The notes: generated by a model not told the origin, from the letters alone. DNA of 46,542 nucleotides from Catajapyx aquilonaris (GCA_000934665.2 JYFJ02003100.1:1-46542), one strand, 5' to 3'; shown: positions 29,996 to 46,542, counted from the first letter of the stretch. Translations and numbers: made by a program.

Positions 29996-30278
29996 TCCTG
30001 GAACCGTGATGCGGGGTCTTGTAGGACCCCAAAGGAATTAAAATGCATAAAAATGATAATTACAATGAACTTTTGCCTTTATTTGAAAGTATATAACAGG
30101 AAGTGCACGTTTATTTTGAATTAGCGATCATTTCAGGCATTGTTCAAAGAATGATTGCACATAGTCAATACATTGAAAAGTATTATATAAAAATTAATAA
30201 AAATTAAAATATGGATGGGGTCCTAAAAGACCCCACGTCACGGTTGCTGTAACTTTTAGGCACGTCACGGCTCCAGGG
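29996..30278. mobile_element. piggyBac-type MITE (283 bp) with TTAA target duplication, in an STK32 intron
   Basis: TTAA at 29992-29995 and 30279-30282; termini tcctggaaccgtga.../...tcacggctccaggg; subterminal inverted repeats ggggtcttgtaggacccc / ggggtcctaaaagacccc with asymmetric spacing. Confidence 0.8.
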
Positions 30279-30523
30279 TTAATACCTGTAAAGCTGGACT
30301 TGTTGTTTGGTGTGATGCAGTATATTCAGTGACTTAAAAGTTTCCTGTGAGCTAAGAGTTTTCAACTAGTGGTGCACTGTAGATAACTATGTTTCAGATG
30401 TGTTGCTACACTTTTGATTCAATTATACTGAATGTATAACAGAAAAACTTAATTCATGTCAGCTTTTAATGGTTTCTCAGAGACTTGGGCGGGAGACTAC
30501 AATTTTCTTCTTGTTTTTGGCAG

Positions 30524-30846
30524 CACCCGAAATATTTGCATGTGCAGCCGATGACTGCCCAGGTTACAGCTTCCCAGCAGACTGGTGGTCCTTGGGAGTG
30601 TGTGCTTATGAACTTGCTACAGGAAGGAGGCCTTTTGACATCCATTCCGCTACTCCTCTGGCTGAAGTCCGGCGCCTGCTGGCTGCCGATGTGTCTAGTT
30701 GGCCATCAGTGTGGAGTCCTGGATTCACATCCTTTCTACGCCGGATGTTGGCCATTGATCCAACAGCAAGGGCCAGTCACATGGATGACCTGAAACCTTT
30801 GCCCTTTATGCAGGGACTTGACTTGGAAGCTGTTTTGGAAAGGAAG
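30524..30846 (+). CDS. STK32: STK32/YANK kinase coding exon 7 (APEIF...DWWSLGVCAYELATGRRPF...LERK)
   Basis: Acceptor ttggcag, phase 1; donor AAG|GTAGGC; subdomains VIII-XI. Confidence 0.93.
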
Positions 30847-30984
30847 GTAGGCGCATCCCTCGCAAGCGCATTTCTCTCCTACCTCTGTAAAGTAGCTGTC
30901 CATACCCTGGGCATCAAGAGTTCCGCTGACACCCATATATCCATTAAAATTTTTGGGGCTCTACTTCATCAAGATGTTTTGCAG

Positions 30985-31140
30985 ATTGGTCCACCTTTTA
31001 CACCACCTAAGGACCACTTAAATTGTGACCCAACATTTGAGCTTGAGGAAATGATCATCGAAGCAAAGCCACTGCACAAGAAGAAAAAGAGGCTAGCAAA
31101 GCAAAGGTCCTTGCGTGAGATCAATGTTCAGTTGCCACAG
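30985..31140 (+). CDS. STK32: STK32/YANK kinase coding exon 8 (IGPPFTPPKDHLNCDPTFELEEMIIEAKPLHKKKKRLAK...)
   Basis: Acceptor tttgcag, donor CAG|GTAATT; LNCDPTFELEEMI.E.KPLHKKKKRL is the YANK C-terminal signature. Confidence 0.93.
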
Positions 31141-31230
31141 GTAATTATCACTGTAGTTGGCAAAGGCAAGTTAATTTTAAGCTCTGTTTAAAATGCTCTC
31201 AATGATGTTTGTGCATGAACATTTCAGCAG

Positions 31231-31659
31231 GAACCAGATTTGGTGCAACAGCACCTGGAACACATTGCTGAGGAATTCACCATTTACAACCGTGAAAGGG
31301 AATTGGAGAAGCGGGACATGGAGCGCAGGGAACAGGAATGGGAGGAGGAGCTGTGGGCTGCCATGGCTGCCAGCACCCCTTCCTGCTCTTCATCGCATCC
31401 TGGAGGCAGTGGGATCAGGAGGCCTGGTCCGGAGCAGCTCAGGAAAACTCACTCTAATCCAGGACCCGAGCCAGAGGGTGAGGTCGGGTCAGTTGAAACC
31501 AATGTTGCAGTTTCCGTTGAGTTACCCATAGCCAAAACGACCAAGTCAGCTTCACCAGAGCTGCCTGCCACTAGAAGGCTCAGACTACTGCGAACACAGA
31601 GCTTGTCCTTACCTAACGGAACACACGAGTCAAGCGAGAAGGGTGGTGGGAACAAGTGA
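31231..31659 (+). CDS. STK32: STK32/YANK kinase last coding exon (EPDLVQQHLEHIAEEFTIYNRE...GGNK*)
   Basis: Tandem acceptor ttcagcag (exon start 31228 or 31231); in frame; EF.IYNRE motif; TGA ends at 31659. Spliced product about 491 aa. Confidence 0.88.
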   Translation, partial: EPDLVQQHLEHIAEEFTIYNRERELEKRDMERREQEWEEELWAAMAASTPSCSSSHPGGSGIRRPGPEQLRKTHSNPGPEPEGEVGSVETNVAVSVELPIAKTTKSASPELPATRRLRLLRTQSLSLPNGTHESSEKGGGNK

Positions 31660-33243
31660 ATGGGAACAAGCAGGACTGTAATTTTGTTGATAGCAGGACT
31701 GTTTCATTTGTAAAGCAGCTTGGACAGGGTGTTAGGAGTGAAGAGAGATTTTCATGGTAGGATGATTGCAAAAACAAGTGGGGCATGTGTTCCTACAGTT
31801 TCCCTACTTTTTGGTATCTGGATCTGAAGTCAAATCTCCTGTACCCCATTGAAAGGAAAATCCTGAACAAAGGCAGTGTCAGTACTGATGAGAGGTGAGA
31901 TGTGTGAGGAAAGGGAAAAGGTTAACACTGATCTTAGTGCCCATCATAGCAATGTGTTTTCATCCTGTCCTGCTTTGTCCTCACTTCACACTATTTTTCT
32001 ACTTACTGTTACAGCTGCTACACTGTTAACTAGTGGGAAGTCTTAGGCATTCAGAGGTAATTGGTTAAAAATTGCTTGAAATATTTAATATATTATAAAT
32101 ATTAATATATGAGATGAAGAGGAAACTGATCCTGTGGGTTAGCAGGGTGTCTGTGGGTCCAATTAGGTACTTTAACAATGAAAAGATCATATGGTAAATA
32201 GGAGAAGCAATCATCAACAGCAATATAGGCAGGGTGGTTATTTTTTTCGTAAATGCCAAAGAGAAAGCACATACTTTTATACCTGAATCTAAAGCCTCCC
32301 CACGCAATGCAATGACCCTCTTCACAACGCTTAATAATGTGCTGTACTCTTTTAACAATCATTCCCATTTTGCCTCTTGACCGACCAACCTATGCACCTC
32401 TATACAAGAGCAACCACAACAATTGAACTTTAGAGTAATAATTTAAGATATGAATGGCACATGCTGCATAGAGGAAAGAGATTGCATCAGGTTTTGTTTT
32501 CCATTGAGTAGTTCCTGATGCTGTCTAGGATGTGTGTCATCCTGTATATAAGTTTTTGAATTGCTCCATTAATGTTATTTAAACTTTCATTCCTCTATGG
32601 CGCACTACCAACTTGTATAGAACTTTGCATAGTTTCTAGAACACTTTTAAAGCGTCACAGTATACAGCAATCAATGTTCCCAAAGTGGCCCTTTGCCTAC
32701 AATACCCTTTGTACTGTCGCTGCTGGGAATAATAAAATGACCTATATGCATTGTTCTTTTTCGTAATAACTGGAGCATTTTTCTTTGCTACGTTTTGGAT
32801 GACCTGCACCTACAATATGGAAGATGATAATTTTTAAAAGTGACTTTCATCATTACAGCAGTTCTGCCGCAAGAAGTCTTCAAGTAAAAATGAAGTAAAT
32901 GTTACTCATGTGCTAGACAACTGTTAATTGGGGCCAATGCAGCCCATTGGAGTATGTCTGATTTTATGCAGCAGAACTAATCACTAGCTGAGGATGGACA
33001 AGGACATGACTTAAAACATGCTGCACTTTCACCTTGGAAGCTTATAGTTTGTAATTTCCGATAATTCACAGCACAACCTATATTCTAACATTATTAAGTT
33101 ACCTTACTGTACTTTTACAACTAATATGAATGAACATCATGACGTCAACAAGAAGCTCGCGATATGAGTTATGATCAAAGCCAGTGTGCTGCTACTTTCT
33201 TTCAGGGATGTAAATCATTGCAGCATTTGCAGTACAAGGTATA

Positions 33244-33252
33244 TTTATTAAA
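33244..33252. promoter_or_regulatory. Candidate overlapping poly(A) signals (AATAAA on -, ATTAAA on +) between the convergent kinase genes
   Basis: TTTATTAAA at 33244-33252; another + strand AATAAA lies at 32731-32736. Confidence 0.3.
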
Positions 33253-33796
33253 CCAGATTAAATACTTGAATATACCTACAAGAGAGCCATGTAACATGCA
33301 ACAAAACAATGTCCAGGTATATAATAATATTATGATATGAGCCATTTTGGCATGTTTATACATATTTTTCCACTGGCTTGCTCAGTGTGTTTTATGAAGC
33401 TTATATACTTCAAAATTGCTGAAAACATTGAGTTCCACCTTCAGAGGTCACCAATATTTGACTGGCACCATGAGAAGTAGCCAGTTTTTCCATTATTCCA
33501 AGTGATTCAATGGGAAGTGCAAGCTTTCAACTGCAAGCGTAGAAACAAAGTTTTACTTGAATGACAAAGTGTGTTATATTAAGATGATTGACATTTTGTT
33601 GGCTACTTACCTAGTGTTAGCTAAGGTACCTTGTCATGTTTGAGCCATGGTGCATACCACAGAGAAGGGGTAATCTTGCCGTTGCTTGCTACATAAAAAA
33701 GGAACACGTTACAAGAACGACTTTTGAGAGTCACATCGGTTCAGTGATTTGGTCCCGAATATGTCTCGAAGGGAAAGATAAGAAAAATAACAAGGT

Positions 33797-34144
33797 TCAC
33801 TGGCCATCACTGCTTCCACCATTGACACCTCTGCTCTTGTTGGCAGGCGTCCCATCACTACTGCCGTCCTCCTCCTCCTCCTCCTCTTCCGCCTCTTCTT
33901 CATCCACTTCTTCTACCACACTGGCCTGAATCCACTCTTTGATTCGGTCCTTCTTCATTCCCCGATCCACTGTTGTCTCGATCCCAAACTGGGAGAGAGT
34001 GAAGAGGAGTTTTCCCTTCTCAGTCGCAGAGCTGTGAAAGCTCACCATGGAGAGGCTGGTAGATAGGTCATCTTCGATCAGTCCATTCTTCCCTGCATTC
34101 TTACTCAGCCACTTGTCCTCCATATACTTGGAAACATCAGCCAC
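33797..34144 (-). CDS. SBK1: SBK1/NKF1-family kinase last coding exon (VADVSKYMEDKW...acidic tail)
   Basis: Acceptor ttgcag, phase 0; KY..D.W closes the kinase domain; poly-Glu tail; stop at 33797. Confidence 0.85.
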   Translation of the reverse strand: MADVSKYMEDKWLSKNAGKNGLIEDDLSTSLSMVSFHSSATEKGKLLFTLSQFGIETTVDRGMKKDRIKEWIQASVVEEVDEEEAEEEEEEEDGSSDGTPANKSRGVNGGSSDGQ

Positions 34145-34307
34145 CTGCAATTAAGATTTAAGTGAACATGAATGACAGCAGTGAATTTTTAAAATCATCA
34201 TAGATAGCCATGGTTATCTTCTATGAGTTCAATATGATAAGAGTTATGCGAAATATATTACCTGATTCTAAATGACAATATCTTGTGCCCTATATTTAAG
34301 GAATTAC

Positions 34308-34574
34308 CTGGACTCGTTTTTCTAAGCGTGGTTCAAGCATCTTCCTGAACAATCTCCTTCCCCTCGAGCTCAGGACCTTGAGGAATTTGGGTGTCCTCAC
34401 TAGATTAGTTCGGCTTCGCAACCAGTGATTCCAGGCTGCAAACCCAGGGTCAGACGTGTCTGCCTTTTGCCATGGCAAACGTCCAGTCAGGCACAGGTAC
34501 AAGAGTATTCCCAGCTGCCATATGTCGTGGGAAGGGTCAACTACATAGCTCTTCTCATATGGAGTATCCACCAC
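34308..34574 (-). CDS. SBK1: SBK1/NKF1-family kinase coding exon 4 (VVDTPYEK...DIWQLGILLYLCLTGRLPWQKAD...KRVQ)
   Basis: Acceptor gaccag, donor CAG|GTAATT; D.WQ.G...CLTG.LPWQKAD is typical of arthropod SBK-like kinases. Confidence 0.92.
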
Positions 34575-34764
34575 CTGGTCAAATGAATTTTTCTCGTGTC
34601 ATACCATAATAACAGGCGACGGAAATGGGTCATATTTGTTTTGATTACTGTGACTGGCTCATAACCTGCAGAATATTTTTAAAATATTCATCTCAGTTTC
34701 TACCTGAGTAGATTGGCCTGTGTGGCTGTGTAAGAACTCCTGAGGTGAGGGAGAAACAGCTTAC

Positions 34765-34962
34765 CTCTGGTGGAGAATAGGGCACCCATTCATTAAACTT
34801 TGTGACAACAGTTCCCTTGGGTCTGGCTTCACTCAGGTCACATAACTTAACTTTGGAAAAGTCACTCTTGAAAACAAGAATATTGTCCATCTTGACATCC
34901 CTGTGAACCAGTCCTTTAGTGTGGATGAAGTCCACCGCTGCAGCAATCTGCTTTGCCACTCT
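34765..34962 (-). CDS. SBK1: SBK1/NKF1-family kinase coding exon 3 (RVAKQIAAAVDFIHTKGLVHRDVKMDNILVF...CDLSE...PYSPPE)
   Basis: Acceptor tttacag, donor GAG|GTAAGC; HRD loop and PPE motif. Confidence 0.92.
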
Positions 34963-35493
34963 CTGTAAACAAAGTGAATATTGATTAATCCCATTATCAT
35001 TTAGTTACGTAAAAATTTACATGATTTCACTTGCAGGTCTTTCCTAAATCTTCAATCGCTATTTGTTTTTTGTTCATTCATCGTAATTTTTATTTAAAAA
35101 TCATTACCAGTGGTTATTGGTTCAACACTATGCTAGATGATGTACCGAGTGATGCACTGTGTTAGCCCAAGGCCAAGACGCGGAAGAACAGGGAGTAAAC
35201 ATTATGGATTGTTTACCCTATAAACCAATTTAAAGACAAGCTAGCAATCAAGGTAAGTGAATTGGTGCTTCCAATCAGTTGCTTCTCTTGAAATTGGGTG
35301 CTAGGGTAAACAATCTGCTTTTTTTCCTCCTCCCTTCACCTTCTCTCCTGTGTATGATACACAGTAACTATGTTCTCATATGAAATAACCTCAGTCATGC
35401 ACTTTCATAACCTTAATTACCGTACCTAATCTGTGCTACAAAAGCAAGGTTAATAAGAAAACTTCTAATTGATTTAAATGGAAATGCCAGTGC

Positions 35494-35808
35494 CTTGGTG
35501 TTGATCTCTCCAATCCCAGTCTCAGAGAGGTTGTTGGTGAGGTCTCCAAAAGGAGCAAACTCCTGGGCAAAAAAGTAGCACCTCTGAGCCTCAAAGGCAA
35601 TATGGAAGGTGCGGACAATATTTTTGTGGTGCCCAAGTTGATAGCTGTAGTGGAATTCCCGATAGAAGTCCTTGAGACTGCAGCATCCACTGTGTTGAGC
35701 CTTCAATACCCTCTCACTCCTGGTTGCTCGCTGCTCCACCAGCAGTACTTTTGCAAACCACCCCTCTCCTACTGTTTGCACTACGTCATACTCCTCATTG
35801 AGGTCTAC
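35494..35808 (-). CDS. SBK1: SBK1/NKF1-family kinase coding exon 2 (VDLNEEYDVVQTVGEGWFAKV...GIGEINTK)
   Basis: Acceptor tttgcag; GEGWF loop, F.REFHYSY.L and FAQE.AP.GDL motifs; 3' end inferred at a GC donor (AAG|GCACTG). Confidence 0.85.
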
Positions 35809-37436
35809 CTGCAAAGTATCCACACAGTTAAATTGTAGAAAAACTGGTAAAAGAAAAGGTGTGATGCAATTCTACATTGCAATAAAATTTGGAAACTTCA
35901 TGTAATCGTTTATTGGTGAATAAAATTCATCCCCCAATGGTACATTATGATGCCAGTTGGAAAATGACTGTACAAGTGGTGGACATTAATGGAGAAGCAC
36001 AAGTGTCGCCTCCTGCGGAGTTTTCCCTCTACATGAAGCTGCTTCATGTGACACTTGCGCTTCTCCATTAATTTCCACCACTACTAAAATATTGTAGTTA
36101 TACTATTTCAGAAGTATAAAATGTATGATGATTGTAGCCACAAATCTTGTGTAGCCTACATATCATCTTTTGCAACTGCTACTCTGCACATTAGGTCTAG
36201 GGCAACCTCGAGGGCAACTATGCCTTGGGGGGAAAAACACCTTAACTGCCACATCATAAAGTCAAGTTTAGTTCACCCTGCTCCACTAATAGAAAACTGC
36301 AGCTGGGTACAAAAATCTGAAGGACTGAATGAACAAAATTTGATTCTATCATACATTGCCAGTATGGCATTTGCACTAAGGATGGTAGTACTGGCAGAGG
36401 AATACCACATGTCAGGATGATTCCATGATGCGCATAACAAGACTGTGTCCAGAAATTAATTTAGACTTTTTAAAATTGACTGTAACTGTATTTTTAATGC
36501 AAAACTAGTTTATTCTTGTGCCTGATTAAGTGGAATTATTGTCCAGAATGTGGAAAATGAGATGCTATGGATAAAGTTACTTTTAATAATTATTTGCTTA
36601 CAATGCCACCTTCGTACATATTATCAGCTGTGTATCACTTATTAATGGTTCTTATATAACAAGCACAGTTATTTTATGCTAACTACTTCGGTCGTAATTA
36701 ATAATGGAATAACAGAAAAGAATAATTCTATCAGCTCTCACCAATCTCAGTTCACTCATTGTTTGTAATATATTATTTGTATTTTGACAGGTACTACAAA
36801 TTTTGCAACCTGCTTTTTCAGAACGTATGGGGAATTTTCCTTATTCAACGTGTGTGGGTTATTTGTCTGACAAGCATGAGTGCGAGCAATTTAAAAGGGG
36901 AAAGTGAGTAGCCTGGGTAGAAATTTTGGCATGACTCCTACGTTAATTGGGCTTTTATCCAGCAGACAAGCGTGTTTGTCTGAGGTTAGCTTGCACCTCG
37001 GTACTTTATAACATGGTGTACTTGAAATGCACCTACGCATTATTTCACATTTTGTTACTTAACTTAGCTAGTTATCCTGGCACCTGCTTGTCACAATGAA
37101 CCCGGAAGCATGGATCGATTTTCAAAGATTCCCTCTCCCTTTCTCAGTTCATCCACCTCCAGGGTATGAACTCAAGGGACATGATGATAAGAAATCACTT
37201 TCATCTGCCTTCAAACCAGATAAAAGTGGCATAGTGAGCAGTGGAGATTTTTTAAAAATCTTTGGAGGCAAAGTCCCAAATTGGCAATTTTCCATGCACC
37301 TCAGTCCAAATTCCTAATGTTTTCTGCACAGTTCACAGTAATGGAGGGACCAGGGAAAGGTTGTGTGAAGGAAAGTAAATCCCTGGCCAGCAATAATATG
37401 ACACAGTTCGGCAGTAAAATATAATGAGTTAGTCAC

Positions 37437-37499
37437 CTCTTTCAACTGGAATTCTTTGATGTGATGGAGGGAGTTGGGCTTTTGCTCCAACGTCCCCAT
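37437..37499 (-). CDS. SBK1: SBK1/NKF1-family kinase coding exon 1 (MGTLEQKPNSLHHIKEFQLKE)
   Basis: ATG preceded by in-frame TAG TGA and by an acceptor (ttcttag) at 37524; donor GAG|GTGACT, phase 0, joins VDLNEEY. Spliced product about 396 aa. Confidence 0.75.
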
Positions 37500-37964
37500 C
37501 GTGTGCCTTCACTAGGGATGTACCTAAGAAGGAATACAGAAGATCAGTGGCGATGAACTTGCAGTTCCCAAATTAACGTTATGGGGAAATAAGGGCTATC
37601 ATTAGTCACTTTTGTTTTCACAGGAAGGGAAAAAATAAAGGTTTAAGTGTCACTTGATGTTTTTGCGCACAATGACTTGAACATTGAGACTAGTCTGATC
37701 TTACATATAAATTATCAAGGTGCTCCATGGTTTAATGTGGCATGATAGTTTGACATATGGAAAATTCTATAAACTTGTAATTCAGGACAACAGTTTTAAC
37801 TTACGTATTTTCTATTCAGGATGATGTGACACTTTATGGCTTAACTACTGAGCATTCCAGAGCTCTCAACTGTGGAGTTTAAGTCACTGACCAAGGAACC
37901 TATGCACGACTGCATATTCTGCCATTTAATCTAGTTGTGGAAGGTCCATAATCCAAAATAAATA

Positions 37965-38504
37965 CAGTGGAACTTTTGTAACTCGACTTCTTTATCATTT
38001 GAGTAAAATTACTTTGGTTGGTCACAATGCAATGTGATAGGAATGAAAATTCCCTATGCCAGAATTCCATATCTCAACATTCCCAACGTCAAATATTCCC
38101 TACGGAATTTGTGCGTTTTCAGTCTCTGGAAGTCGAATTTTGTGTTCGATTTAGGTAGCTTTCCTCACTACACTATCTATAGGTTAAAGACAGACTGAAA
38201 CTTGTGGACTGAATTGCAATTGAGTGTGCCAACCATGGTGTGTATTTGCATTGGTAGAGACTACATAGAACCACTAGTTCAGAGCGAAAACTGTTGTTCA
38301 TGTTGCCGAAGATGTCCTGGACTGTATGTATTTTTTGTTCATTGAAAATTAGATAGTGAAAAAATGAAGATAAATATCCCGGTACAGTTTTGCACTGCAA
38401 TTTTTTCAAACTTTTCTCACTCTAATCTTCCATCGAGTTGTTGTGTGGGTGTGTATTTTTTGTCCTGTAGAAGTGTAGAGATTCAAGTTGGAGAAGTTCC
38501 ACGG
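37965..38504. mobile_element. pogo/Tigger-type MITE remnant with TA target duplication
   Basis: TA|CAGTGGAACTTTTGTAACTCGA ... TCAAGTTGGAGAAGTTCCACGG|TA; imperfect TIRs of about 23 bp starting CAGT; no ORF. Confidence 0.65.
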
Positions 38505-38988
38505 TAATTCAGTCAGAGCCAGATGACCTGTCTTATGGGGTCGCAACACTTCTGGTGACCACAGCACCAATCAAGCTTTGAGCAGAGGGCCAAATTTCAC
38601 CTTCGTTACAGATAAATTTAAGCTATATTATTTACACTGAATTGGGTGTCCAGCAAAAGAATACCATGATGTCATTCAGCTGGGTTAGAGAGAGTGATGT
38701 CGTGGCATTCTTTCACTGGACATACTAAGAATATTGATCATTGCATTGCAAATAAAGCAGCACATTATCACAGAAGTGACTAACTGGAAGGCCAACTATA
38801 CAAATGGGGCCAGGCATTATTTTGTGCATGTACAGTACAGTATTTACATATTCAGTACTTCCAGGTACTAACAACTTTTATTGTGCAAGCCTGGCAATGC
38901 AATAATTGTACATGTACAGCTACGGTACTTGGAGTATTTCAGAGAAAATTACAATAACTTCCGGTTTTCACAAAAATGGGACCTGAAT

Positions 38989-39054
38989 TACTACTGCTGC
39001 CATTACTACTACTACTACTACTGCTACTACTACTACTACTACTACTACTACTAT
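38989..39054 (+). repeat. (TAC)n microsatellite, interrupted
   Basis: Direct reading; it produces the poly-Tyr in the spurious ORF 38881-39117. Confidence 0.95.
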
Positions 39055-40986
39055 ATTTTAAAATTCTTACTTGCCCTGTTTGCATGCATGGCACAGCACA
39101 CTAAACCCCACAATTGATTGTAATCACTAGTTCTCGCTCTGTAGATCTGCAGACCTCCACAGGTGATAGTGAAACTTTTCCACCACATTTTTAATTTATC
39201 AAATGCGAGATATGATGACTAATTTTTCACGTGTATTATGACACAGGCTTTTTTCAGACAATAGACTTGATTTCTCTGATGTCCAGGGTGAAAAAGAGCA
39301 TGGGAATCCCACCAATTCCACTGCCCTTGATCTGGACTTTGTTCAAGGGCCTCCTCTCCTCTTGCCAAAATAAATAAATATGCCCGGACCAGCCTGGCCC
39401 ATGTCTTTTAAGCAGTGGCCGGCCTGGCAAACATTTACATATCTGCATTTGCCGACACAAACCATGTCACACACTACCTTTTATATCTACAGCACATCAA
39501 GAATTAAATAATGAACAAAGAATGAAAGCAGTACTTGCTTGAAGCTGTTGGCCCCTACCAACAATGCTTCAAGACTGATGTATTTTACCCGCATCAGTAC
39601 ATCCTTTCGGTCTGAGGGACCAAATTAACCCCACCACGCAGGCACAAGGTGAGAAGGGCTGCAGCCATTCCTGTGGGGAGAAGCAAGCATAACACATGGG
39701 GACCTTTTGGAGATCTCATGACGCAGGCAGGACAATGCAGGAGCGCCATTTTCTATTCTTAGGTGAGATTAGATTTAGTAGGAGAGTTACGCGATTTTAA
39801 ACATACACTCAGGGCATTCTCACTGGAAGCTTTCCACCTCCTGGGCACTGCCAAGTCCGTGTCACTTGTTCACCTAATCACTCACCTAACCGCAAACTTT
39901 TTCAGTCACTTGCACTTCACCACTGCACTAGTGACTAAATCAGTGAAGGGCATCATGGGCCATTGTTGCACACATGCACTTGCAAATTCACTCTTAGGAC
40001 TGTAACACTACGATGCAAACTAAACACAGCCACCCAGTTACTTGCAGAGTCTCCCAAAGAGTGGTGCTATTCTTGGACTCAGCAAGAGACATGGAGAGGT
40101 GTCTTCTCCCCCCTTTAACCTCCCTCCTGTCTCCCTCCCTTGGCCCTTTCCTTTGGCGGTTTACACTGTGGGCAAGGTGCCAGTGGTATCTCTGCCAGTA
40201 CTGAAAGTTCGCCTGAAAAGGTTGATTAGTACTAGTCACCACGTGCTCTGGGGCTGATTTAATGTGTGAGGATACAGTCATCCAGCTTGTGCACGTACAT
40301 TACTTCACACATCTGCCATAAAGTTAATCCATGGTGACACAATCTAAGCCTTTTTCTGAAATTATGTACATTCACATGTTACTTCATTTTACTCTTGGGG
40401 AAAATAAGTGATAATTCAATAGAGCCTATTGGTTCGGAAGCTGGCAACTTGAATCTTGCTAAATGCCATCCACAGCCATAATTACTGTATTAATTACCTT
40501 GCTGTAGTAGTTGCTTTTATTGGCAGAATTCATCTTGTTGGTAAAAGGTGAAGTCCAAATTGGCCTGAATTTGACAAAAATCAGGTTCCAAACTTTTTTT
40601 TGAAAATGGTAATAAAATAAAAGAAATAAAACAGGTCCCACTTTGGGGACAAATTCTGAGATTCTGCCGATGTTGGCTGCCTTCTGACAAAATCATGGTA
40701 AATAAAATTTAAGTACATTTAAAACCAAATAAATCTACAGCTTGCTGATCTTTTACTGTTTGTTGACATGAACTTTATATTGGTGCAATGTTTCAAGTTT
40801 TCCACAATATTTACGCCGATGACTTCACGAGTTTACGCTATATTTCTGGAACCAATTACAAGTGTGAAATGGGTACTTCCTGTATTATAATGGGTTTGGT
40901 ATAAACCATAGGGGCAGGGGTGGACTTAGAACCAATTACCCAAAGAAAATTAGGACTCATTGTGCATCCTTTCATCCTCCCTCATG

Positions 40987-40992
40987 TTTATT
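40987..40992 (-). promoter_or_regulatory. Candidate poly(A) signal of the ZAP-like gene
   Basis: AATAAA on the - strand about 95 nt after the stop codon at 41088. Confidence 0.45.
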
Positions 40993-41087
40993 ATATATGA
41001 AACTGATACAAAGCAAAGCAAACTCTCATCTGTTGCAGTAAAAATGACTCTTTCCAAATATAAATGTGATTATCTCTGAAGATATCA

Positions 41088-41432
41088 CTAGTGTCCCTTT
41101 TCATATGGTTGCAGCTTGGTTGGTCGCCTGCGCAGCTTCCTGCTTCTACCTGTATCCTTATTCTGCTGCTCAAGTTTGTCAAAGTCAATGTGGTAATTGA
41201 ATGCTCCTATTGACATGACATCACTGGACTTCCCAGAGAGAAAAGTCAGCTCAATCAGGTGGGTACCTTGGCCACACGATTTCCAAGTGTATCCATCATC
41301 AAAATACCAGTCCCACGAGGTGGCCAGGGCATGGCTGGATGACACAGTGGATGGGGTTGATACACGACGAACATGATATTTTTGCCGCGAGAAGTTGTAC
41401 AAGACCATACAATTCAGGTCCAATGTCCATGT
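41088..41432 (-). CDS. ZAP(ZC3HAV1)/PARP12-like protein, last exon: end of WWE1 and all of WWE2
   Basis: Acceptor caacag, phase 0; VRRVSTPS, W.WY....TW and Y.IDF....Q.N..TG..RKLRRRP are tandem-WWE motifs of the PARP12/ZAP family; stop follows shortly. Confidence 0.88.
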   Translation of the reverse strand, partial: TWTLDLNCMVLYNFSRQKYHVRRVSTPSTVSSSHALATSWDWYFDDGYTWKSCGQGTHLIELTFLSGKSSDVMSIGAFNYHIDFDKLEQQNKDTGRSRKLRRRPTKLQPYEKGH

Positions 41433-41726
41433 CTGTTGATAAGGCACAACTGTTATTTTTGATGTAGGAATGTTTAAATTGCAAATTGTAACTACTCTGC
41501 CCTACTTGGTTCAGAAAATGAGGAGTGATTTAGCCCCCTAAATTGTAACTAAAAAAGTACACTATCTGCCAATGCCACACAATTGAAGCCGAAGTTGCAG
41601 CAGGGACATAGCGCCATATGTGACCATTTGAAACTTGAGAAGCTCGCAACACTTTGACACCATTATCTCGGATCTTTACAATTTATTTGTGATTCCGGCT
41701 ATCACTAATCTCATTCCCACTATTAA

Positions 41727-42590
41727 CCCCTTCACTACCAGCTAGGCCAACAATTCCTAGATTTTAGCTTACACCTACTCTGAAGATAAAGACAAGGGGT
41801 GGAATTTTCGTCCCACTGATAGTTACTGCTAACTCAGCAGTACCATTGCCAACACTGGCACTGCTAAGTTAGCAGTAACTATCAGTGAGACGAAAATTCC
41901 ACCCAAGATATTTTACAAATAATAATTTCACCTATATTTACCCATTCATGGATAACACTATTAATGTGTTGCAAACAATTTTACTAATCTAGAAGTCCGA
42001 AATTAGTTTCCAAAAAGACCGCCTTAAAAACTCGACATTCGAGTACTACCAGCCAACTGTCAGGCTGATATAATAATGAAATAAGCCTACACTAAAATAT
42101 ACAGAACAACCACCTTGAGAACCGTGCCAGATGAATTTGCTGAAATCGTCGTCCTTTGTGAGAAATAAAGTAATACTTATTTGAGGCTTTTTGAAACTTT
42201 GGAAAACATCCAAATTGATTTACTTCTTGAAAAGTGTCAAGCCGCCGCAAATAAGTATTGATCTCCTTCTCGCCAAGTACAACAATTTCAGCAAAATAAT
42301 GCTTCTGGCACAGTTCTCTAGGTTGTTGTTCCATATATTTTAGTGCATTTCATAATTAAATCAGCCGAACAGTTGTCTGGCAGTACTCGAATTTCGAGTT
42401 TTTAAGGTGGTCTTTTTGGAAATTAATTTAGGGACTTCTAGAGGAGTAAAATTATTTGCAACACATTAATAGTGTTTTCCATGACTGGGTAAATCTGGCT
42501 GTTATTATTTGTAAAATATCTGGGTCTTTATCTCCAGAGTAGGCATCAGCTCAAATCTAGGGGTTTTTGGCCTAGCTGGTAGCGAAGGGG
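41727..42590. mobile_element. piggyBac-type foldback MITE (whole-length degenerate palindrome) in the ZAP-like gene intron
   Basis: TTAA|CCCCTTCACTACCAGCTAGGCCAA ... TTGGCCTAGCTGGTAGCGAAGGGG|TTAC; arms stay alignable to about 42200/42231 (about 360 bp each, moderately diverged). Confidence 0.8.
41797..41904. mobile_element. 108-bp hairpin element nested in the left arm of the foldback MITE
   Basis: 49-bp arms (41797-41845 / 41856-41904, 3 mismatches), 10-nt loop, GGG...CCC ends, AAG on both sides; absent from the sister arm near 42520. Confidence 0.8.
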
Positions 42591-43016
42591 TTACACACCA
42601 TCTTTACCTAAATCTCAGTTAATTGCGTAATATAGTCCAAAAATTCCCCATCTTACTTCCACCAAATGTCGCTGAAAAATGTGCCAACTGTAATTCACAT
42701 TTTTCAAAAGGTCTATTTTCAATAATATTAGGATCCCAATCTTGATATAACTATTAAAGTTATATGAAACCTTGCACTGATATTAGTTTTAAAATCTTGT
42801 CCAAAATTTATCCAATGAACTTGTCACATGCATTATAACAAAAGATACTGCATCCAAAAACAGCTAATTCAGACATTACTTATGTGGCAAATAACATCCA
42901 CCAACTTAGCTTTTTAGACTTTTAAACTTGAACAAGTAAAATGCCTAGGCTTGGGACTATCTTGGGATAGCACTTCACTATCCCCCTTTTGTCACATCCT
43001 AATTCGCAAAACTTAC

Positions 43017-45773
43017 CTCATCTCCCAGAATCTGGCACGTCTTTCTGGGCATGTCACTCCCTTGTTTGGAAGGTGTCAATCGAAATGAATCACTGTTGAC
43101 ATTCCGATATTCCTGTTCAATTACTTCTGCGCAGTCATCACCCAAAGACTCCCATTGGCCATCGACCTGTATTTCCCAAATATACAGATCCTTCTCATGG
43201 ACCTTCTTGCAAGATCCAGAACACTGCCCATCTATGAAGCGCAGGCAAATGATGTCTTCTTCACTGTTATTGCTTTTAGTGGCCTTTCGGTTCCCTGGCT
43301 GTGCCACACGAGGATTGCTGTATCCTTGGTCTGTCAACTGCGGCCGACTCATACCTCCTTCTCCTATGATTGGCTTCTTCTCTGGTGGCACCCCACTTGG
43401 ATTATAATTTCTTGGTTCTCTTCCTGGTGGAAACTGTCTCTCTCCTACGATTGGCTTCCTCTCTGGTGGCAGCCCACTTGGATTATAATTTCTTGGTTCT
43501 CTTTCTGGTGGAAACTGTCTCTCTCCTGAATGGTGAGGTTTATCCCAATCCCTCCCTGGTCGATTTCTTTCTTGTGAAAGTTTATTGTAAGGTGGCTGAT
43601 CATGAGGCCTCCCATACATATTGCCTTGATGTTGTGCAGTGCCTGAGGTTTCTCTCTGATGACCTGTTCTACCTTCATTCATTCTATGTCCTGTGAAGTC
43701 CTGACTACGTTGATCTTGCTCTCTGCGATTATCGGGCCTTCTATCATTTACCCTTGGATGGTTCTGTTCCATGGAGTCACTCCTGTATGAGTGATTGCCT
43801 CTCTTATGTTGGTTATGTTGGTGCTCAGGTTCACTTTGATAATGTGCCTCCTGCTGATGCATGCCAGGGCCAGAACTACTGGAATACTGTTGTGATTTTC
43901 GCCTGGTTGGTTCAGCATCTGAAATATTCATATTACGGCCCTTCTCAAGTATGTGTTTCTTCTGTTCTGGCTTGACAGGGGGCTTCGATTTCACAGGTTC
44001 TGAATCACTCTCTTCTTCTTCATCATCAGAACTTGACGTAGCTGCAGTTTCTGCAGTCAGGAGGCTTTTCAAGAGCTCCTTCTTTTTTTCAGCTGGCATC
44101 TTGGCCAAAATATCTTTCCATGACTTCTCCTCAACTGCGGCTTCAGGTTTTCTTGGCTCTGATAAGAATTGCTTTTGTGGTTTTTTATTGTCACCATCTC
44201 TTTCCACATCACGATCCCCTATTGCAGTATCCATCCGCTTTTGGAGGTCCATGGAGTCATTCTTGTGTGGGTGTTTCTTTCTCTGATGTTGGTTGTAGTT
44301 CTCAGGTTCACTTTGATAGTGTGCCTCCTGCTGATGCATGCCAAGGCCAGAACTACTCGAAATCTGCTGTGATTTTCGCCTGGTTGGTTCATCATCTGAA
44401 GTATTCATGTTACGGACCTTCTCTAATATGTCTCTCTTGGTTTCTGACCTCAAGGGGGGCTTAGGCTGGATAGGTTCTGAATCACTCTCTTCTTCATTAC
44501 CAGAGCTTGACATAGCAGTAGTTTCTGCAGTCAGGAGTCTTTTCATCAGCTGCTTCTTCTTTTCATCTTGAATCTTGTCCAACACATCTTCCCAAGACTT
44601 CTCAACTTCTGGGGTTTCAGATTTTTCTGGCTCTGATGAGAATTGCTTTTGCGGTTTCTGATCCTCACCATCCCTTTCCGCATCATGATCCTCTATTGCA
44701 GCATCCATCAAGTTTGGCACAGGCAGCTGCTTCTCAGGCAAGTTATCGCCCATGCGAGTTGGGGTTCCATTGCTTGGTGAAATGTCAATCAAATCAGCTT
44801 CCACCAATGTCTTCTCAGGTAAGTTGTTTGTGACAGACGGAGGCAAGGTTGAGTTTGATGCTTTCACCAACTCCTCGTTATGCAGGTAACGGGCCACAAC
44901 AGATGACTGCTTTGTCACCTTCTCCGATTTTGCATCCTCCAGTTTACCACCAGCATTTTCTTCAGTTTCCAATTTCTGGTGTTGCATCTCTGGACTTGTA
45001 GCTTGAGTGTGACTTTTTGGATCAACATCTGCAGCATCAGCTTTTATGCTCGGCTTTTCCACAACCTCACTACTATTTCCATCTTTATGATTGGATTTCT
45101 CTTCAGCCAACAAACTGTTCCAAAATGACTTCAACTTTTCCTCTATGGCACTCCGATTCTCTGATGGGTCAATCCCAAACTGGGCCAATATGTGTATGCA
45201 ATCTGGGTGCTTCACATTGTGATTTTCATCACACACTGAGTTGCAATTTCCCAAAATAAACTTGTCACAAATGTGCATAAGGTTGCAGTCTTGCACGCAT
45301 TCCTTTTTCTTAGACTTCGGGCATATACCTGGAAGCACTTGAGAACTTGTAAACTGCAGGAGTTGGCGCACTTTGGTGACAGGTGCACCATCAAGTTGAA
45401 ATGCCTTCAAGACAGCCTGGTTGTGACGAGAGTTCAGGTTATGACTGTAAATGCAGCTGTCTGGTTCAGAGCACAGTTCAGTCAGGGACATGTGGCATAT
45501 GTGCAGTTTTTTACATGAAGCATCAGGGCATCCAGAAAGTGAGTTGTAAGTGGCACATATGATAACGTGAGGGGACAGCTGAATCCTGTTGACTGATCGA
45601 TCTGAAGATGGTGTTACACGAAAGATGTCAGGGTACACCATGACGAAAGCCAAAGTTCGAATGGACTCATTGCTTCGAGCATCTTGGTGCATGAGGTCAG
45701 GTAAGTCTGCAACAGTAGTGGTGAAGTTGTGTTGTTGGAGCAGTTCCTTCACTATCTGCTTCAGAGCATCCAT
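43017..45773 (-). CDS. ZAP(ZC3HAV1)/PARP12-like protein, large exon: N-terminal domain with four CCCH zinc fingers, long disordered linker, fifth CCCH finger and start of WWE1
   Basis: Within the 928-codon ORF; CCCH fingers x8/4/3, x7/5/3, x7/3/3, x7/3/3 with ZAP-like spacers (LHIC, YSH, LP.IC); C-terminal IC..F..G.C...C.KVH....Y.W; donor GAG|GTAAGT at 43017/43016; acceptor tttcag at 45777, three nt before the ATG. Confidence 0.9.
43360..43526 (-). repeat. 81-bp (27-aa) coding tandem duplication GERQFPPxREPRNYNPSGxPPExKPI
   Basis: Two near-identical copies visible in DNA and protein. Confidence 0.9.
43769..44708 (-). repeat. About 475-bp (about 158-aa) coding tandem duplication in the ZAP-like linker
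   Basis: Shared blocks KPQKQF.SEP, EKSW.D.L.K, LLTAET, ESDSEP, EPTRRKSQQ and GMHQQEAHYQSEPE in both copies; DNA offset 474-480 bp. Confidence 0.92.
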
Positions 45774-46050
45774 TGTCTGAAACACATGTATCCAATCAAG
45801 GTGGCAGCCTTTACATCACTATTGAGCATCACAATAATGCTGACAATCTAAAACCATCCCACAGTAATCACAGCAAAAAAGTATGAATCATTTCAAAGAT
45901 GTCTGCAAGAGTGTGCATCCAGTCGCCTCCAACTTGACTCAGTTTTAAGACTGCCACTGACTAGCTGAAACTAGTACTGCAACTGCTCATGAATATTTTC
46001 AATAAACGAACATGTTGAATTTTTTGAGGTAGCAGCAACTTTAAAAGTAC

Positions 46051-46206
46051 CTTTTCATCTGTGTCACATGCACTTCCTATTGATTTTTCTTGATCAGTGT
46101 CACTTGAGAAATGGTCAGGGTCCCCTGGGATTTGGTCCCCACTGATCCCCACAGCTGGATCCGTGTCGTCCTCAGAGGAGGGAAGAGAATTCAAGAGGCT
46201 GCACTC
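46051..46206 (-). CDS. Possible upstream exon of the ZAP-like gene (acidic, ...SSEDDTDP...CDTDEK)
   Basis: Open frame between acceptor tttgcag and donor AAG|GTACTT; phase 0 joins ACA ATG GAT of the large exon. It could instead be 5' UTR. Confidence 0.4.
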
Positions 46207-46453
46207 TGCAAATTTATGTTGTAGTTAAAACCTGACAAATTTATTGTGTATTTTATAAGTCAATCTTTACCTTGAAATCTACCAGCAAATAGATTCTGGG
46301 CCAAGACCAGCAAATCACGAAGTCCCACAAAGATACCTGATCAGGAGAGTTGGAAAAATATATACCAGGGTGTCTATTGTAACTCTGCAAAGACTTTCAG
46401 GGATAATAGAGGGGACCAAGACAAGTATTTTTGACATAGGAACCTGTGTCCGG

Positions 46454-46469
46454 AAACGCCATCTAGAGG
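46454..46469 (-). promoter_or_regulatory. CTCF-like motif CCTCTAGATGGCG in the CpG-rich 5' region of the ZAP-like gene
   Basis: Close match to the CTCF core (CCnCYAGRKGGCR); binding unproven. Confidence 0.35.
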
Positions 46470-46542
46470 GGGTTCATAGACAAGGAACGGGTGAGCTCAG
46501 ACGCGTCACGCGGGAGGCGCTAGGGGAGCGGCCTGTTTTGTT

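What the first reader, a model, noticed from the sequence alone, without database searches (positions are those of the whole stretch)
41088..45773. Invertebrate ZAP-like protein hard-wired in the PARP-less 'ZAP-S' architecture: candidate antiviral RNA sensor
Seen: four CCCH fingers, a linker of roughly 600 aa, ZnF5, WWE1 and WWE2, then a stop 10 codons after RRRP and an AATAAA about 95 nt later. No PARP-like ORF lies between it and the next gene. Known: vertebrate ZAP/PARP13 and PARP12 have this domain order followed by a PARP domain, and the interferon-induced ZAP-S isoform lacks it through alternative RNA processing. Inference: an apparently arthropod genome encodes a constitutively PARP-less member, suggesting an RNA-binding and poly(ADP-ribose)-sensing restriction factor in a lineage whose antiviral defence is usually attributed to RNAi.
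Basis: partly seen in the sequence, partly recalled or inferred. Interest (0 to 1): 0.75.

Follow-up and report, generated by a model that had tools for sequence, protein, structure and literature searches.

The report
PARP-less ZAP/PARP12-like gene in an arthropod
This is a real, spliced gene for a relative of the vertebrate antiviral proteins ZAP and PARP12 that keeps the RNA-binding and ADP-ribose-binding parts but has no enzyme domain; similar shortened genes already sit unnamed in several crustacean genomes, so it is a further member of that group and not a new kind of system.

Summary
A minus-strand gene (ATG 45773, stop 41090-41088) encodes 1033 residues. It has a winged-helix plus four CCCH fingers, a ~650-residue disordered linker, then ZnF5, WWE1 and WWE2. 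The stop comes 10 codons after RRRP and an AATAAA lies 95 nt further on. Contigs of one public run join 43017 to 41432 and 46051 to 45776 at GT..AG sites, which confirms the splicing. No PARP-domain remnant was found anywhere in the window.

The N-terminal domain matches only ZAP's RNA-binding domain, by sequence (E 2.6e-10) and by fold (E 5e-10). The exon-2 fold matches ZAP's central domain best.

The nearest relatives are crustacean PARP12-like proteins at 25-38% identity. Of the 150 best relatives, 27 have WWE plus PARP and 23 have WWE without PARP. Twelve of those end just after WWE2, as this protein does (Halocaridina, Palaemon, Macrobrachium, Panulirus, Oratosquilla and others). The hard-wired PARP-less layout is therefore widespread, though I found no study of it.

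Only 1 of ZAP's 4 CpG-contact residues is kept, so CpG sensing is unlikely. The WWE2 ADP-ribose pocket residues are kept. An antiviral role is inference only. The true N-terminus may lie upstream, possibly beyond the window.

The parts
46051..46214 (-). Upstream exon, either 5'UTR or further coding sequence. It is open in the frame of the main ORF for 54 codons, with no ATG and no stop.
   Evidence: The joint 45776|46051 (CT..AC) appears in a contig of run X1, with 157 letters on the far side. The 46214 acceptor is read from the sequence only.
45777..46050 (-). Intron (274 nt, GT..AG) just upstream of the ATG.
   Evidence: joint 'skips 274'; sequence.
43017..45776 (-). Large exon. The CDS starts at the ATG at 45773 and covers 919 codons: N-terminal domain, linker, ZnF5 and the first half of WWE1.
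45129..45773 (-). ZAP-type N-terminal RNA-binding domain (aa 1-215): a winged-helix at about aa 1-70, then CCCH fingers ZnF1 45557-45501, ZnF2 45497-45441, ZnF3 45323-45273 and ZnF4 45269-45219.
   Evidence: PF25261 at E 1.2e-7. phmmer against PDB ZAP N-terminal domain 6uei at E 2.6e-10. The 16 zinc ligands are invariant or near-invariant across 42 sequences. AF2 pLDDT 87.7. All 5 PDB fold matches with E<=1e-3 are ZAP N-terminal domains. Coordinates.
43248..45128 (-). Disordered linker rich in E, S, K and P. It contains a tandem duplication (aa 356-509 = 44708-44247 and aa 514-669 = 44234-43767) and an 81-nt repeat of 2.1 copies at 43360-43527.
   Evidence: 103 of 154 residues identical between the two copies, dN/dS 0.66, plus composition; tandem repeat.
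43197..43247 (-). ZnF5 (C-x7-C-x3-C-x3-H, aa 843-859).
   Evidence: It aligns with the ZnF5 of relatives.
41433..43016 (-). Intron (1584 nt, GT..AG, phase 0) inside WWE1, filled with nested inverted repeats that look like foldback or MITE elements.
   Evidence: joint 'skips 1584' at depth 36.6. sequence; 6 inverted-repeat pairs.
41088..41432 (-). Last coding exon: the second half of WWE1 (to about 41358), WWE2 (41318-41121), a 10-codon tail and the stop TAG at 41090-41088.
   Evidence: PF02825 at E 1.5e-10. AF2 pLDDT 89.9. Best PDB fold match is ZAP central domain 7kzh at E 1.6e-6, followed by ADP/ADPr-bound WWE domains. Coordinates.
40987..40992 (-). AATAAA polyadenylation signal, 95 nt after the stop.

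Best explanation
This is an expressed, spliced gene of a pancrustacean (arthropod) genome. It encodes a fast-evolving member of the PARP12/ZAP family that lacks the ADP-ribosyltransferase domain by gene structure.

Shown here: the gene model, the domain content, the absence of any PARP remnant in the window, and relatives with the same truncated layout.

Inferred:
- The N-terminal winged-helix plus four CCCH fingers bind single-stranded RNA, without ZAP's strict CpG selectivity.
- WWE2 binds an ADP-ribose unit, such as the end of a poly(ADP-ribose) chain or a mono-ADP-ribosylated protein made by another enzyme.
- The roughly 650-residue disordered linker joins the two binding modules.
- The protein therefore acts as a non-catalytic adaptor that brings bound RNA to sites of ADP-ribosylation (stress-granule-type condensates, decay or translation-control factors), as ZAP-S does in vertebrates.

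An antiviral role is the most attractive biological setting but is the least supported step.
For: Gene model:
- An intact reading frame of 1033 codons.
- GT..AG joints 41432|43017 and 45776|46051 in contigs of run X1. Seven further canonical joints in the neighbouring kinase gene indicate that the run holds spliced RNA.

Family:
- PF25261 and WWE.
- phmmer hits to ZAP N-terminal domain structures at E 2.6e-10.
- 547 library relatives at E<=1e-3.
- AF2 model pLDDT 87.7, whose 5 of 5 significant PDB matches are ZAP N-terminal domains over 222-237 columns.
- The exon-2 model matches ZAP central domain best, at E 1.6e-6.
- The nearest ESM Atlas clusters are PF25261 / 'ZC3HAV1 like', scores 0.94-0.96.

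No PARP domain: with positive controls 16 of 16.

Same layout in relatives:
- 23 of 150 relatives have WWE without PARP.
- 12 of the 43 relatives that carry the module end within 38 residues of it. Named ones come from Halocaridina, Palaemon, Macrobrachium, Panulirus, Oratosquilla and Trinorchestia.

Binding competence:
- All 16 zinc ligands of ZnF1-4 are invariant or near-invariant.
- In WWE2, W-x-W-Y-F, Y, Q-x-N and RRRP align with ZAP W611 (here F, as in the crustacean consensus), the Tyr aligned to RNF146 Y144, Q668 and R682. Residue roles come from passages of PMC8853533 and PMC9720839.

Lead for immunity: a ZAP homologue rose 2.89-fold in Litopenaeus vannamei after Taura syndrome virus infection (PMC3585375, passages and Table 3 text).
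Against: - There is no functional, induction or binding data for this protein.
- Only 1 of 4 ZAP CpG contacts is kept: K89 is H, Y98 falls in a 4-residue deletion, K107 is I, and Y108 is kept (alignment; contacts from PMC8102003).
- The branch is very long, 1.9-2.2 against a median of about 0.6. The two linker copies give dN/dS 0.66. Both are compatible with relaxed constraint as well as with an arms race.
- Splicing evidence rests on one run of unrecorded kind, and contigs cannot show that no rarer isoform exists.
- The N-terminus may be incomplete.
- The rest of the genome could not be searched, so a PARP-bearing paralogue or a distant 3' exon outside the window cannot be excluded.
Confidence: 0.6

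Rival explanations
1. A housekeeping RNA-regulatory or stress-granule adaptor with no special link to viruses. The same RNA-binding and ADP-ribose-binding modules would serve ordinary mRNA turnover, translation control or stress responses.
For: PARP-less and PARP-bearing relatives are widespread and often present in several copies per crustacean genome. The CpG pocket is not kept. No sign of induction was seen. Contigs of the one run that was laid cover the gene without any known challenge.
Against: A long branch and a lineage-specific family expansion are more typical of conflict genes than of housekeeping ones. A shrimp ZAP homologue is virus-induced (PMC3585375).
Confidence: 0.25
2. A truncated duplicate of a PARP12 gene that is drifting towards a pseudogene. 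It lost its 3' exons on duplication and is still transcribed.
For: It has the longest branch but a few in both trees. dN/dS between the linker copies is 0.66. No close orthologue was found.
Against: The frame of 1033 codons is intact. All 16 + 4 zinc ligands, the W-W-E triad and RRRP are kept. Both models are confident. The canonical introns are spliced. Relatives with the same end point are kept in several species.
Confidence: 0.1
3. The PARP domain is present but missed. It would lie on exons outside the window, or be used only in a rare isoform, so the gene is an ordinary PARP12.
For: Contigs cannot exclude rare isoforms. Four crustacean relatives (P0092, P0096, P0130, P0116) end at one homologous point about 80 residues into the PARP domain, which hints at truncated isoforms of PARP12 genes elsewhere.
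Against: The stop lies inside the exon, 10 codons after WWE2, and AATAAA follows 95 nt later. The next minus-strand gene is a kinase whose 5' exons begin about 1.2 kb downstream. No PARP remnant occurs in the 41 kb downstream.
Confidence: 0.05

Closest known systems
PARP12 of malacostracan crustaceans (records named 'protein mono-ADP-ribosyltransferase PARP12' in Cherax quadricarinatus, Portunus trituberculatus and Hyalella azteca)
   Same: It shares the N-terminal four-finger domain, a long linker and the ZnF5-WWE1-WWE2 module. These are the best matches of the C-terminal module (27-32% identity). In the module tree the window protein sits with them, weakly supported.
   Different: They carry a PF00644 PARP domain of about 200 residues after WWE2. 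The window protein stops 10 residues after WWE2.
Uncharacterised PARP-less CCCH-WWE proteins of decapods and a stomatopod (Halocaridina rubra, Palaemon carinicauda, Macrobrachium rosenbergii, Panulirus ornatus, Cherax quadricarinatus, Oratosquilla oratoria)
   Same: They have the same architecture and the same end point, 1-22 residues after WWE2 (132 in Cherax).
   Different: Only 23-27% identical in the module. The decapod rows form a well-supported clade of their own (99 and 97 SH-aLRT; Oratosquilla lies outside it). The window protein is not placed in that clade, although an AU test does not reject it (p 0.288).
ZAP-S (short isoform of vertebrate ZC3HAV1/PARP13)
   Same: Same domain content: RNA-binding domain, disordered linker, ZnF5-WWE1-WWE2, no PARP domain. 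The N-terminal domain and central-domain folds match ZAP structures best.
   Different: ZAP-S arises by alternative RNA processing of a gene that also encodes the PARP domain (established knowledge). Here no PARP exon exists in the window. The CpG pocket is not kept (1 of 4 contacts). ZAP itself arose within vertebrates (PMC8102003).
ZC3HAV1L (vertebrate 'ZAP-like')
   Same: A hard-wired gene with the ZAP-type N-terminal domain and no PARP domain. 'ZC3HAV1 like' is among the nearest ESM Atlas clusters.
   Different: ZC3HAV1L has only the N-terminal domain (PMC8102003 passage). The window protein also keeps ZnF5 and both WWE domains.

Membership tests
PARP12/ZAP family (CCCH-WWE PARPs) | N-terminal domain with four CCCH fingers of the ZAP/PARP12 type | tested here: met
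   PF25261 at E 1.2e-7. ZAP N-terminal domain structures at E 2.6e-10. Zinc ligands invariant. Fold matches ZAP N-terminal domains only.
PARP12/ZAP family (CCCH-WWE PARPs) | Central ZnF5-WWE1-WWE2 module | tested here: met
   WWE at E 1.5e-10. The module aligns over its full length with 43 relatives. The exon-2 fold matches ZAP central domain 7kzh best.
PARP12/ZAP family (CCCH-WWE PARPs) | C-terminal PARP (ADP-ribosyltransferase) fold | tested here: not met
   No PF00644 match in 51 downstream ORFs. No tblastn or HMM signal in the whole window, with 16 of 16 positive controls. The stop and AATAAA follow directly after WWE2.
ZAP (PARP13) proper | CpG-specific pocket in ZnF2 (K89, Y98, K107, Y108) | tested here: not met
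   alignment gives H, a deletion, I and Y, so 1 of 4 is kept. The contact list is from PMC8102003 (Discussion passage).
ZAP (PARP13) proper | Orthology with the tetrapod ZAP lineage | tested here: inconclusive
   The trees place it with or next to crustacean PARP12-like proteins. No named vertebrate ZAP was in the tree. The paper dates ZAP to vertebrates (PMC8102003).
ZAP (PARP13) proper | Dependence on the cofactors TRIM25 and KHNYN | not testable with these tools
   No genome is held for this window.
ADP-ribose-binding WWE domains (RNF146, ZAP WWE2, TRIP12, HUWE1) | Adenine-stacking aromatic, buried Gln, and phosphate-binding Tyr and Arg | tested here: met
   F at the position of ZAP W611 / RNF146 Y107, Q at Q668, Y and R kept (alignments, consensus). 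Residue roles from PMC8853533 passages. Binding itself was not tested.
ZAP-S type (PARP-less by alternative processing) | A PARP exon exists in the same gene and is skipped in the short form | tested here: not met
   No PARP-coding sequence anywhere in the 46.5-kb window.
Decapod, mostly PARP-less CCCH-WWE clade | Falls inside that clade in a tree | tested here: inconclusive
   It lies outside the clade in both trees, but the AU test does not reject membership (p 0.288). The long branch makes placement unsure.

The most novel reading that the evidence does not exclude
In this arthropod lineage the PARP12 function has been split between two genes. This gene would be a fast-evolving, non-catalytic RNA sensor that reads ADP-ribose marks written in trans by a separate enzyme. 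Together the two would form an RNAi-independent antiviral arm in a group that a 2021 survey described as lacking ZAP/PARP12 altogether.
Probability: 0.15. Interest if true: 0.7.

Novelty: new member of a known kind. Interest (0 to 1): 0.35.

Why it matters
A published survey of ZAP/PARP12 evolution states that arthropods appear to lack the family, and that only a few species have PARP-less forms (PMC8102003, passages read). The searches here show the opposite. Crustaceans carry both PARP12-like genes and many genes that end right after WWE2. This window adds a very divergent one from a pancrustacean with no close relative in the databases.

That makes non-catalytic ZAP-S-like proteins a recurrent, genome-encoded solution rather than a vertebrate splicing curiosity. 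It also offers candidates for RNAi-independent antiviral defence in crustaceans, including farmed shrimp and crayfish. The gene itself is not a new kind of system, and its function remains untested.

Tried and rejected
- Word-based homologue searches with the N-terminal domain (lengths 508-1617) and with exon 2 (longer proteins) found nothing at E<=1e-3. The relatives came only from the full HMMER scan.
- No RNA holder was listed for the gene. The single run listed has no recorded kind. I read it as RNA only because its contigs carry nine CT..AC joints.
- The bins without cover (36164-36615, 38876-39327, 40232-40683) say nothing, and neither does the absence of a listed joint leaving exon 2.
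- No whole genome is held for this window, so PARP-bearing paralogues and cofactors could not be sought.
- Earlier-findings look-ups near the place, by sequence, by relatives and by words gave nothing. The genome-wide word look-up gave only zinc-finger transcription-factor notes.
- Two weak tblastn hits were rejected as chance. One was a PARP tail at 15061-14873 (E 0.013, one of 16 queries). The other was a WWE module at 39888-40094 on the plus strand (E 0.02), which crosses a stop. The window's own protein finds no second copy at E<=1.
- blastp of the upstream-exon peptide against the relatives gave only E>=3.
- Literature: 'PARP12' with 'WSSV' returned 0 papers. 'ZC3HAV1/crustacean/arthropod' returned nothing relevant among the 12 listed. 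Supplements of PMC8102003 (its species list) were not opened.
- Taxon: I could not narrow it beyond pancrustacean.
Full report
OBSERVATION

The minus strand between 45773 and 41088 carries one gene. A stop-to-stop frame of 938 codons (42999-45815) holds an ATG at 45773. It leaves the frame at a GAG|GTAAGT donor, so the last exon base is 43017. A second frame (41088-41501) is entered at a ...ATCAACAG| acceptor, so the first exon base is 41432. Both junctions are in phase 0.

The joined CDS is 3102 nt, or 1033 codons, and ends in TAG at 41090-41088. An AATAAA at 40992 lies 95 nt after the stop.

Domains, with coordinates:
- CCCH fingers at aa 73-91, 93-111, 151-167 and 169-185
- ZnF5 at aa 843-859
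- WWE1 at about aa 863-944, split by the intron
- WWE2 at about aa 958-1023
- RRRP followed by 10 codons and the stop

SPLICING

Only one public run holds the stretch (64% of the sampled words), and its kind is not on record. Laid on 33000-46542, its contigs carry nine joints with CT..AC ends, which is GT..AG on the minus strand:
- 41432|43017, depth 36.6. This is exactly the predicted intron.
- 45776|46051, depth 6.3. This is an intron ending 3 nt before the ATG.
- Seven more in the neighbouring kinase gene.

I read this as spliced RNA. The kind of the run is my inference.

The exon upstream of the ATG (46051 to about 46214) is open in the frame of the main ORF for 54 codons, with no ATG and no stop. 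The protein may therefore begin further upstream, possibly outside the window. Many crustacean relatives carry 150-250 residues ahead of this domain (coordinates), while others start within 10-30 residues of it.

NO PARP DOMAIN

- None of 51 minus-strand ORFs of at least 30 aa between the stop and the next gene matched PF00644 at E<=1.
- I took the sequence after WWE2 from 16 PARP-bearing relatives and ran tblastn against the whole window. The best hit was E 0.013, 26 kb away, for one query only.
- As a control, the ZnF5-WWE modules of the same 16 proteins all found exon 2 (E down to 7e-12), and most also found the end of exon 1.
- An HMM built from the 16 tails gave a best E of 0.19 against all stop-to-stop segments of at least 15 aa.
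- The next minus-strand gene is a meng-po/SBK1-like kinase. Its coding exons lie at 33226-35806, and its 5' exons at 37435-37520 and from 39804.

WHAT FAMILY

Sequence and fold evidence:
- Pfam gives PF25261 (PARP12-like CCCH tandem, E 1.2e-7) and WWE (E 1.5e-10).
- Against PDB sequences, the first 233 residues match only ZAP's RNA-binding domain (3 distinct sequences, best E 2.6e-10).
- An AlphaFold model built on 42 sequences has mean pLDDT 87.7. Its five PDB matches with E<=1e-3 are all ZAP N-terminal domains, aligned over 222-237 columns (TM about 0.5). The first 70 residues resemble winged-helix domains.
- The exon-2 model (pLDDT 89.9) matches the ZAP central domain 7kzh best (E 1.6e-6, 115 columns). 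Next come WWE domains solved with ADP, ATP, ADP-ribose or iso-ADP-ribose: TRIP12, PARP11, RNF146 and HUWE1.
- The ESM Atlas agrees. Its nearest clusters are PF25261 and 'ZC3HAV1 like', scores 0.94-0.96.

RELATIVES

A full HMMER scan with the N-terminal domain found 547 proteins at E<=1e-3 and 156 at E<=1e-10. None was more than 38% identical. Two word-based searches found nothing, so no close orthologue is in the collections.

Pfam scans of the best 150 (at E<=1e-3; at E<=1e-5) give:

| Architecture | Count of 150 |
|---|---|
| WWE plus PARP | 27 |
| PARP without a WWE hit | 4 |
| WWE without PARP | 23 |
| CCCH arrays, RING fusions or no further domain | 96 |

The 23 with WWE but no PARP are not all the same thing:
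- Four (P0092, P0096, P0130, P0116) end at one homologous point about 80 residues into the PARP domain. They are truncated PARP12 forms, not PARP-less genes.
- Two or three look partial.
- Twelve end within 38 residues of WWE2, as the window protein does.

Names were available for 30 proteins:
- PARP-less forms come from Halocaridina rubra (3), Palaemon carinicauda (2), Macrobrachium rosenbergii, Panulirus ornatus, Cherax quadricarinatus, Oratosquilla oratoria and Trinorchestia longiramus (a partial record). Outside arthropods they come from a nemertean and a crinoid.
- Forms with PARP come from Hyalella azteca, Cherax, Portunus trituberculatus, Idotea baltica and a hemichordate.
- All five listed isoforms of the nemertean gene, and both listed isoforms of the Macrobrachium gene, lack PARP.

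PLACEMENT

Tree of the ZnF5-WWE1-WWE2 module (45 rows, 224 columns, quick search):
- The window protein lies inside a supported clade of 31 crustacean rows (SH-aLRT 97).
- It sits weakly with the PARP12-proper group, next to Idotea.
- Its end branch is 2.24 against a median of 0.56.

An AU test does not reject putting it with the 14-row, mostly PARP-less decapod clade (p 0.288).

Tree with the N-terminal domain added (44 rows, 390 columns):
- It becomes sister to all 29 malacostracan rows, with supports of 81 and 90.

The placement is therefore unresolved. It is a PARP12-like protein of the crustacean radiation on a long branch. Whether its PARP loss is shared with the decapod clade or independent cannot be told.

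The neighbouring kinase is 50-61% identical to kinases of insects, a springtail and decapods. The genome is pancrustacean, and I cannot say more.

LIKELY MECHANISM

RNA binding:
- All 16 zinc ligands of ZnF1-4 are invariant or near-invariant in the 42-sequence alignment, so an RNA-binding fold is expected.
- ZAP's CpG contacts are K89, Y98, K107 and Y108 (PMC8102003, Discussion passage). In the alignment these are H, a 4-residue deletion, I and Y, so only 1 of 4 is kept.
- I therefore expect ssRNA binding without ZAP's CpG selectivity.
- The gene and its two neighbours are themselves CpG-poor (observed/expected 0.27-0.46, against 0.79 in the first 30 kb of the window). The host background that makes CpG sensing possible in vertebrates may exist here, but the pocket does not.

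ADP-ribose binding:
- In WWE2 the residues that hold the AMP part of ADP-ribose in RNF146 (Y107, Y144, Q153, R163) and ZAP (W611, Q668) (PMC8853533 passages; W611 also in PMC9720839) align with F, Y, Q and R.
- F at this position is the consensus of the crustacean relatives.
- Binding of an ADP-ribose unit is thus plausible but untested.

Linker:
- It is disordered and rich in E, S, K and P.
- It holds a tandem duplication of about 155 residues (103 of 154 identical, dN/dS 0.66) and an 81-nt repeat.

Taken together, the protein looks like a non-catalytic adaptor between RNA and ADP-ribose marks that other enzymes make, which is what ZAP-S is thought to be.

I could not check it.

The only published hint of an immune role that I found is a 2.89-fold rise of a ZAP homologue in shrimp after Taura syndrome virus infection (PMC3585375, passage and table text).

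COMPARISON AND NOVELTY

The architecture equals that of ZAP-S, but here it is fixed in the gene. It goes beyond ZC3HAV1L, which has only the N-terminal domain. By descent it belongs with crustacean PARP12-like proteins.

The 2021 survey of the family says that arthropods appear to lack it and that only a few species have PARP-less forms (PMC8102003, passages). The database records found here contradict the first statement for crustaceans and widen the second.

I found no paper on these crustacean proteins, based on the following searches:
- (0 papers)

So this is a new, very divergent member of a catalogued but unstudied group. It is neither a new kind of system nor a singular case.

VERDICT

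Interest is moderate to low (0.35).

Noticed in passing
window 41433-43016 (intron of the gene): The intron is packed with nested inverted repeats: 6 pairs, with arms of 48-96 nt that are 76-92% complementary, including a 52-nt hairpin at 41797-41904. Several contigs of run X1 end in unrelated sequence there, which fits a dispersed foldback or MITE-type element.
   Followed up: partly
proteins P0092, P0096, P0130, P0116 (Logan/ENA records; relatives of Portunus and Cherax PARP12): Four cluster representatives from different crustaceans end at the same homologous point, about 80 residues into the PARP domain (Cherax PARP12 residue 916), before the catalytic core. They may be conserved truncated isoforms, a ZAP-S-like device in crustacean PARP12 genes. 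They may equally be assembly breaks at a splice junction.
   Followed up: partly
window 46051-46214, minus strand: The exon spliced onto the ATG exon is open in frame for 54 acidic codons, with no ATG and no stop. It also holds two out-of-frame ATGs just before the main ATG. It is either an N-terminal extension whose start lies upstream, or a 5'UTR with small upstream ORFs.
   Followed up: partly
window 30000-46542 versus 1-30000: CpG observed/expected is 0.27-0.46 across exons, introns and spacer of the three genes in the last 16 kb, but 0.79 in the first 30 kb. GpC is near 1 in both. This fits germline methylation of gene bodies.
   Followed up: partly
window 33226-39835 (minus strand) and 30418-31659 (plus strand): Two protein-kinase genes lie tail to tail. 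A meng-po/SBK1-like kinase has 5' exons at 37435-37520 and from 39804, with an alternative first exon near 39346-39669. An unnamed Pkinase-domain ORF lies on the plus strand.
   Followed up: partly
window 38872-39117, plus strand: A TAY-type microsatellite reads as a run of tyrosines. Read laying skipped 38989-39061 as a repeat.
   Followed up: no
proteins P0089, P0103, P0112, P0114, P0125, P0136: Six of the 150 relatives join ZAP-type CCCH fingers to a C-terminal RING finger, a possible one-chain version of an RNA sensor plus ubiquitin ligase. Their taxa were not looked up.
   Followed up: no
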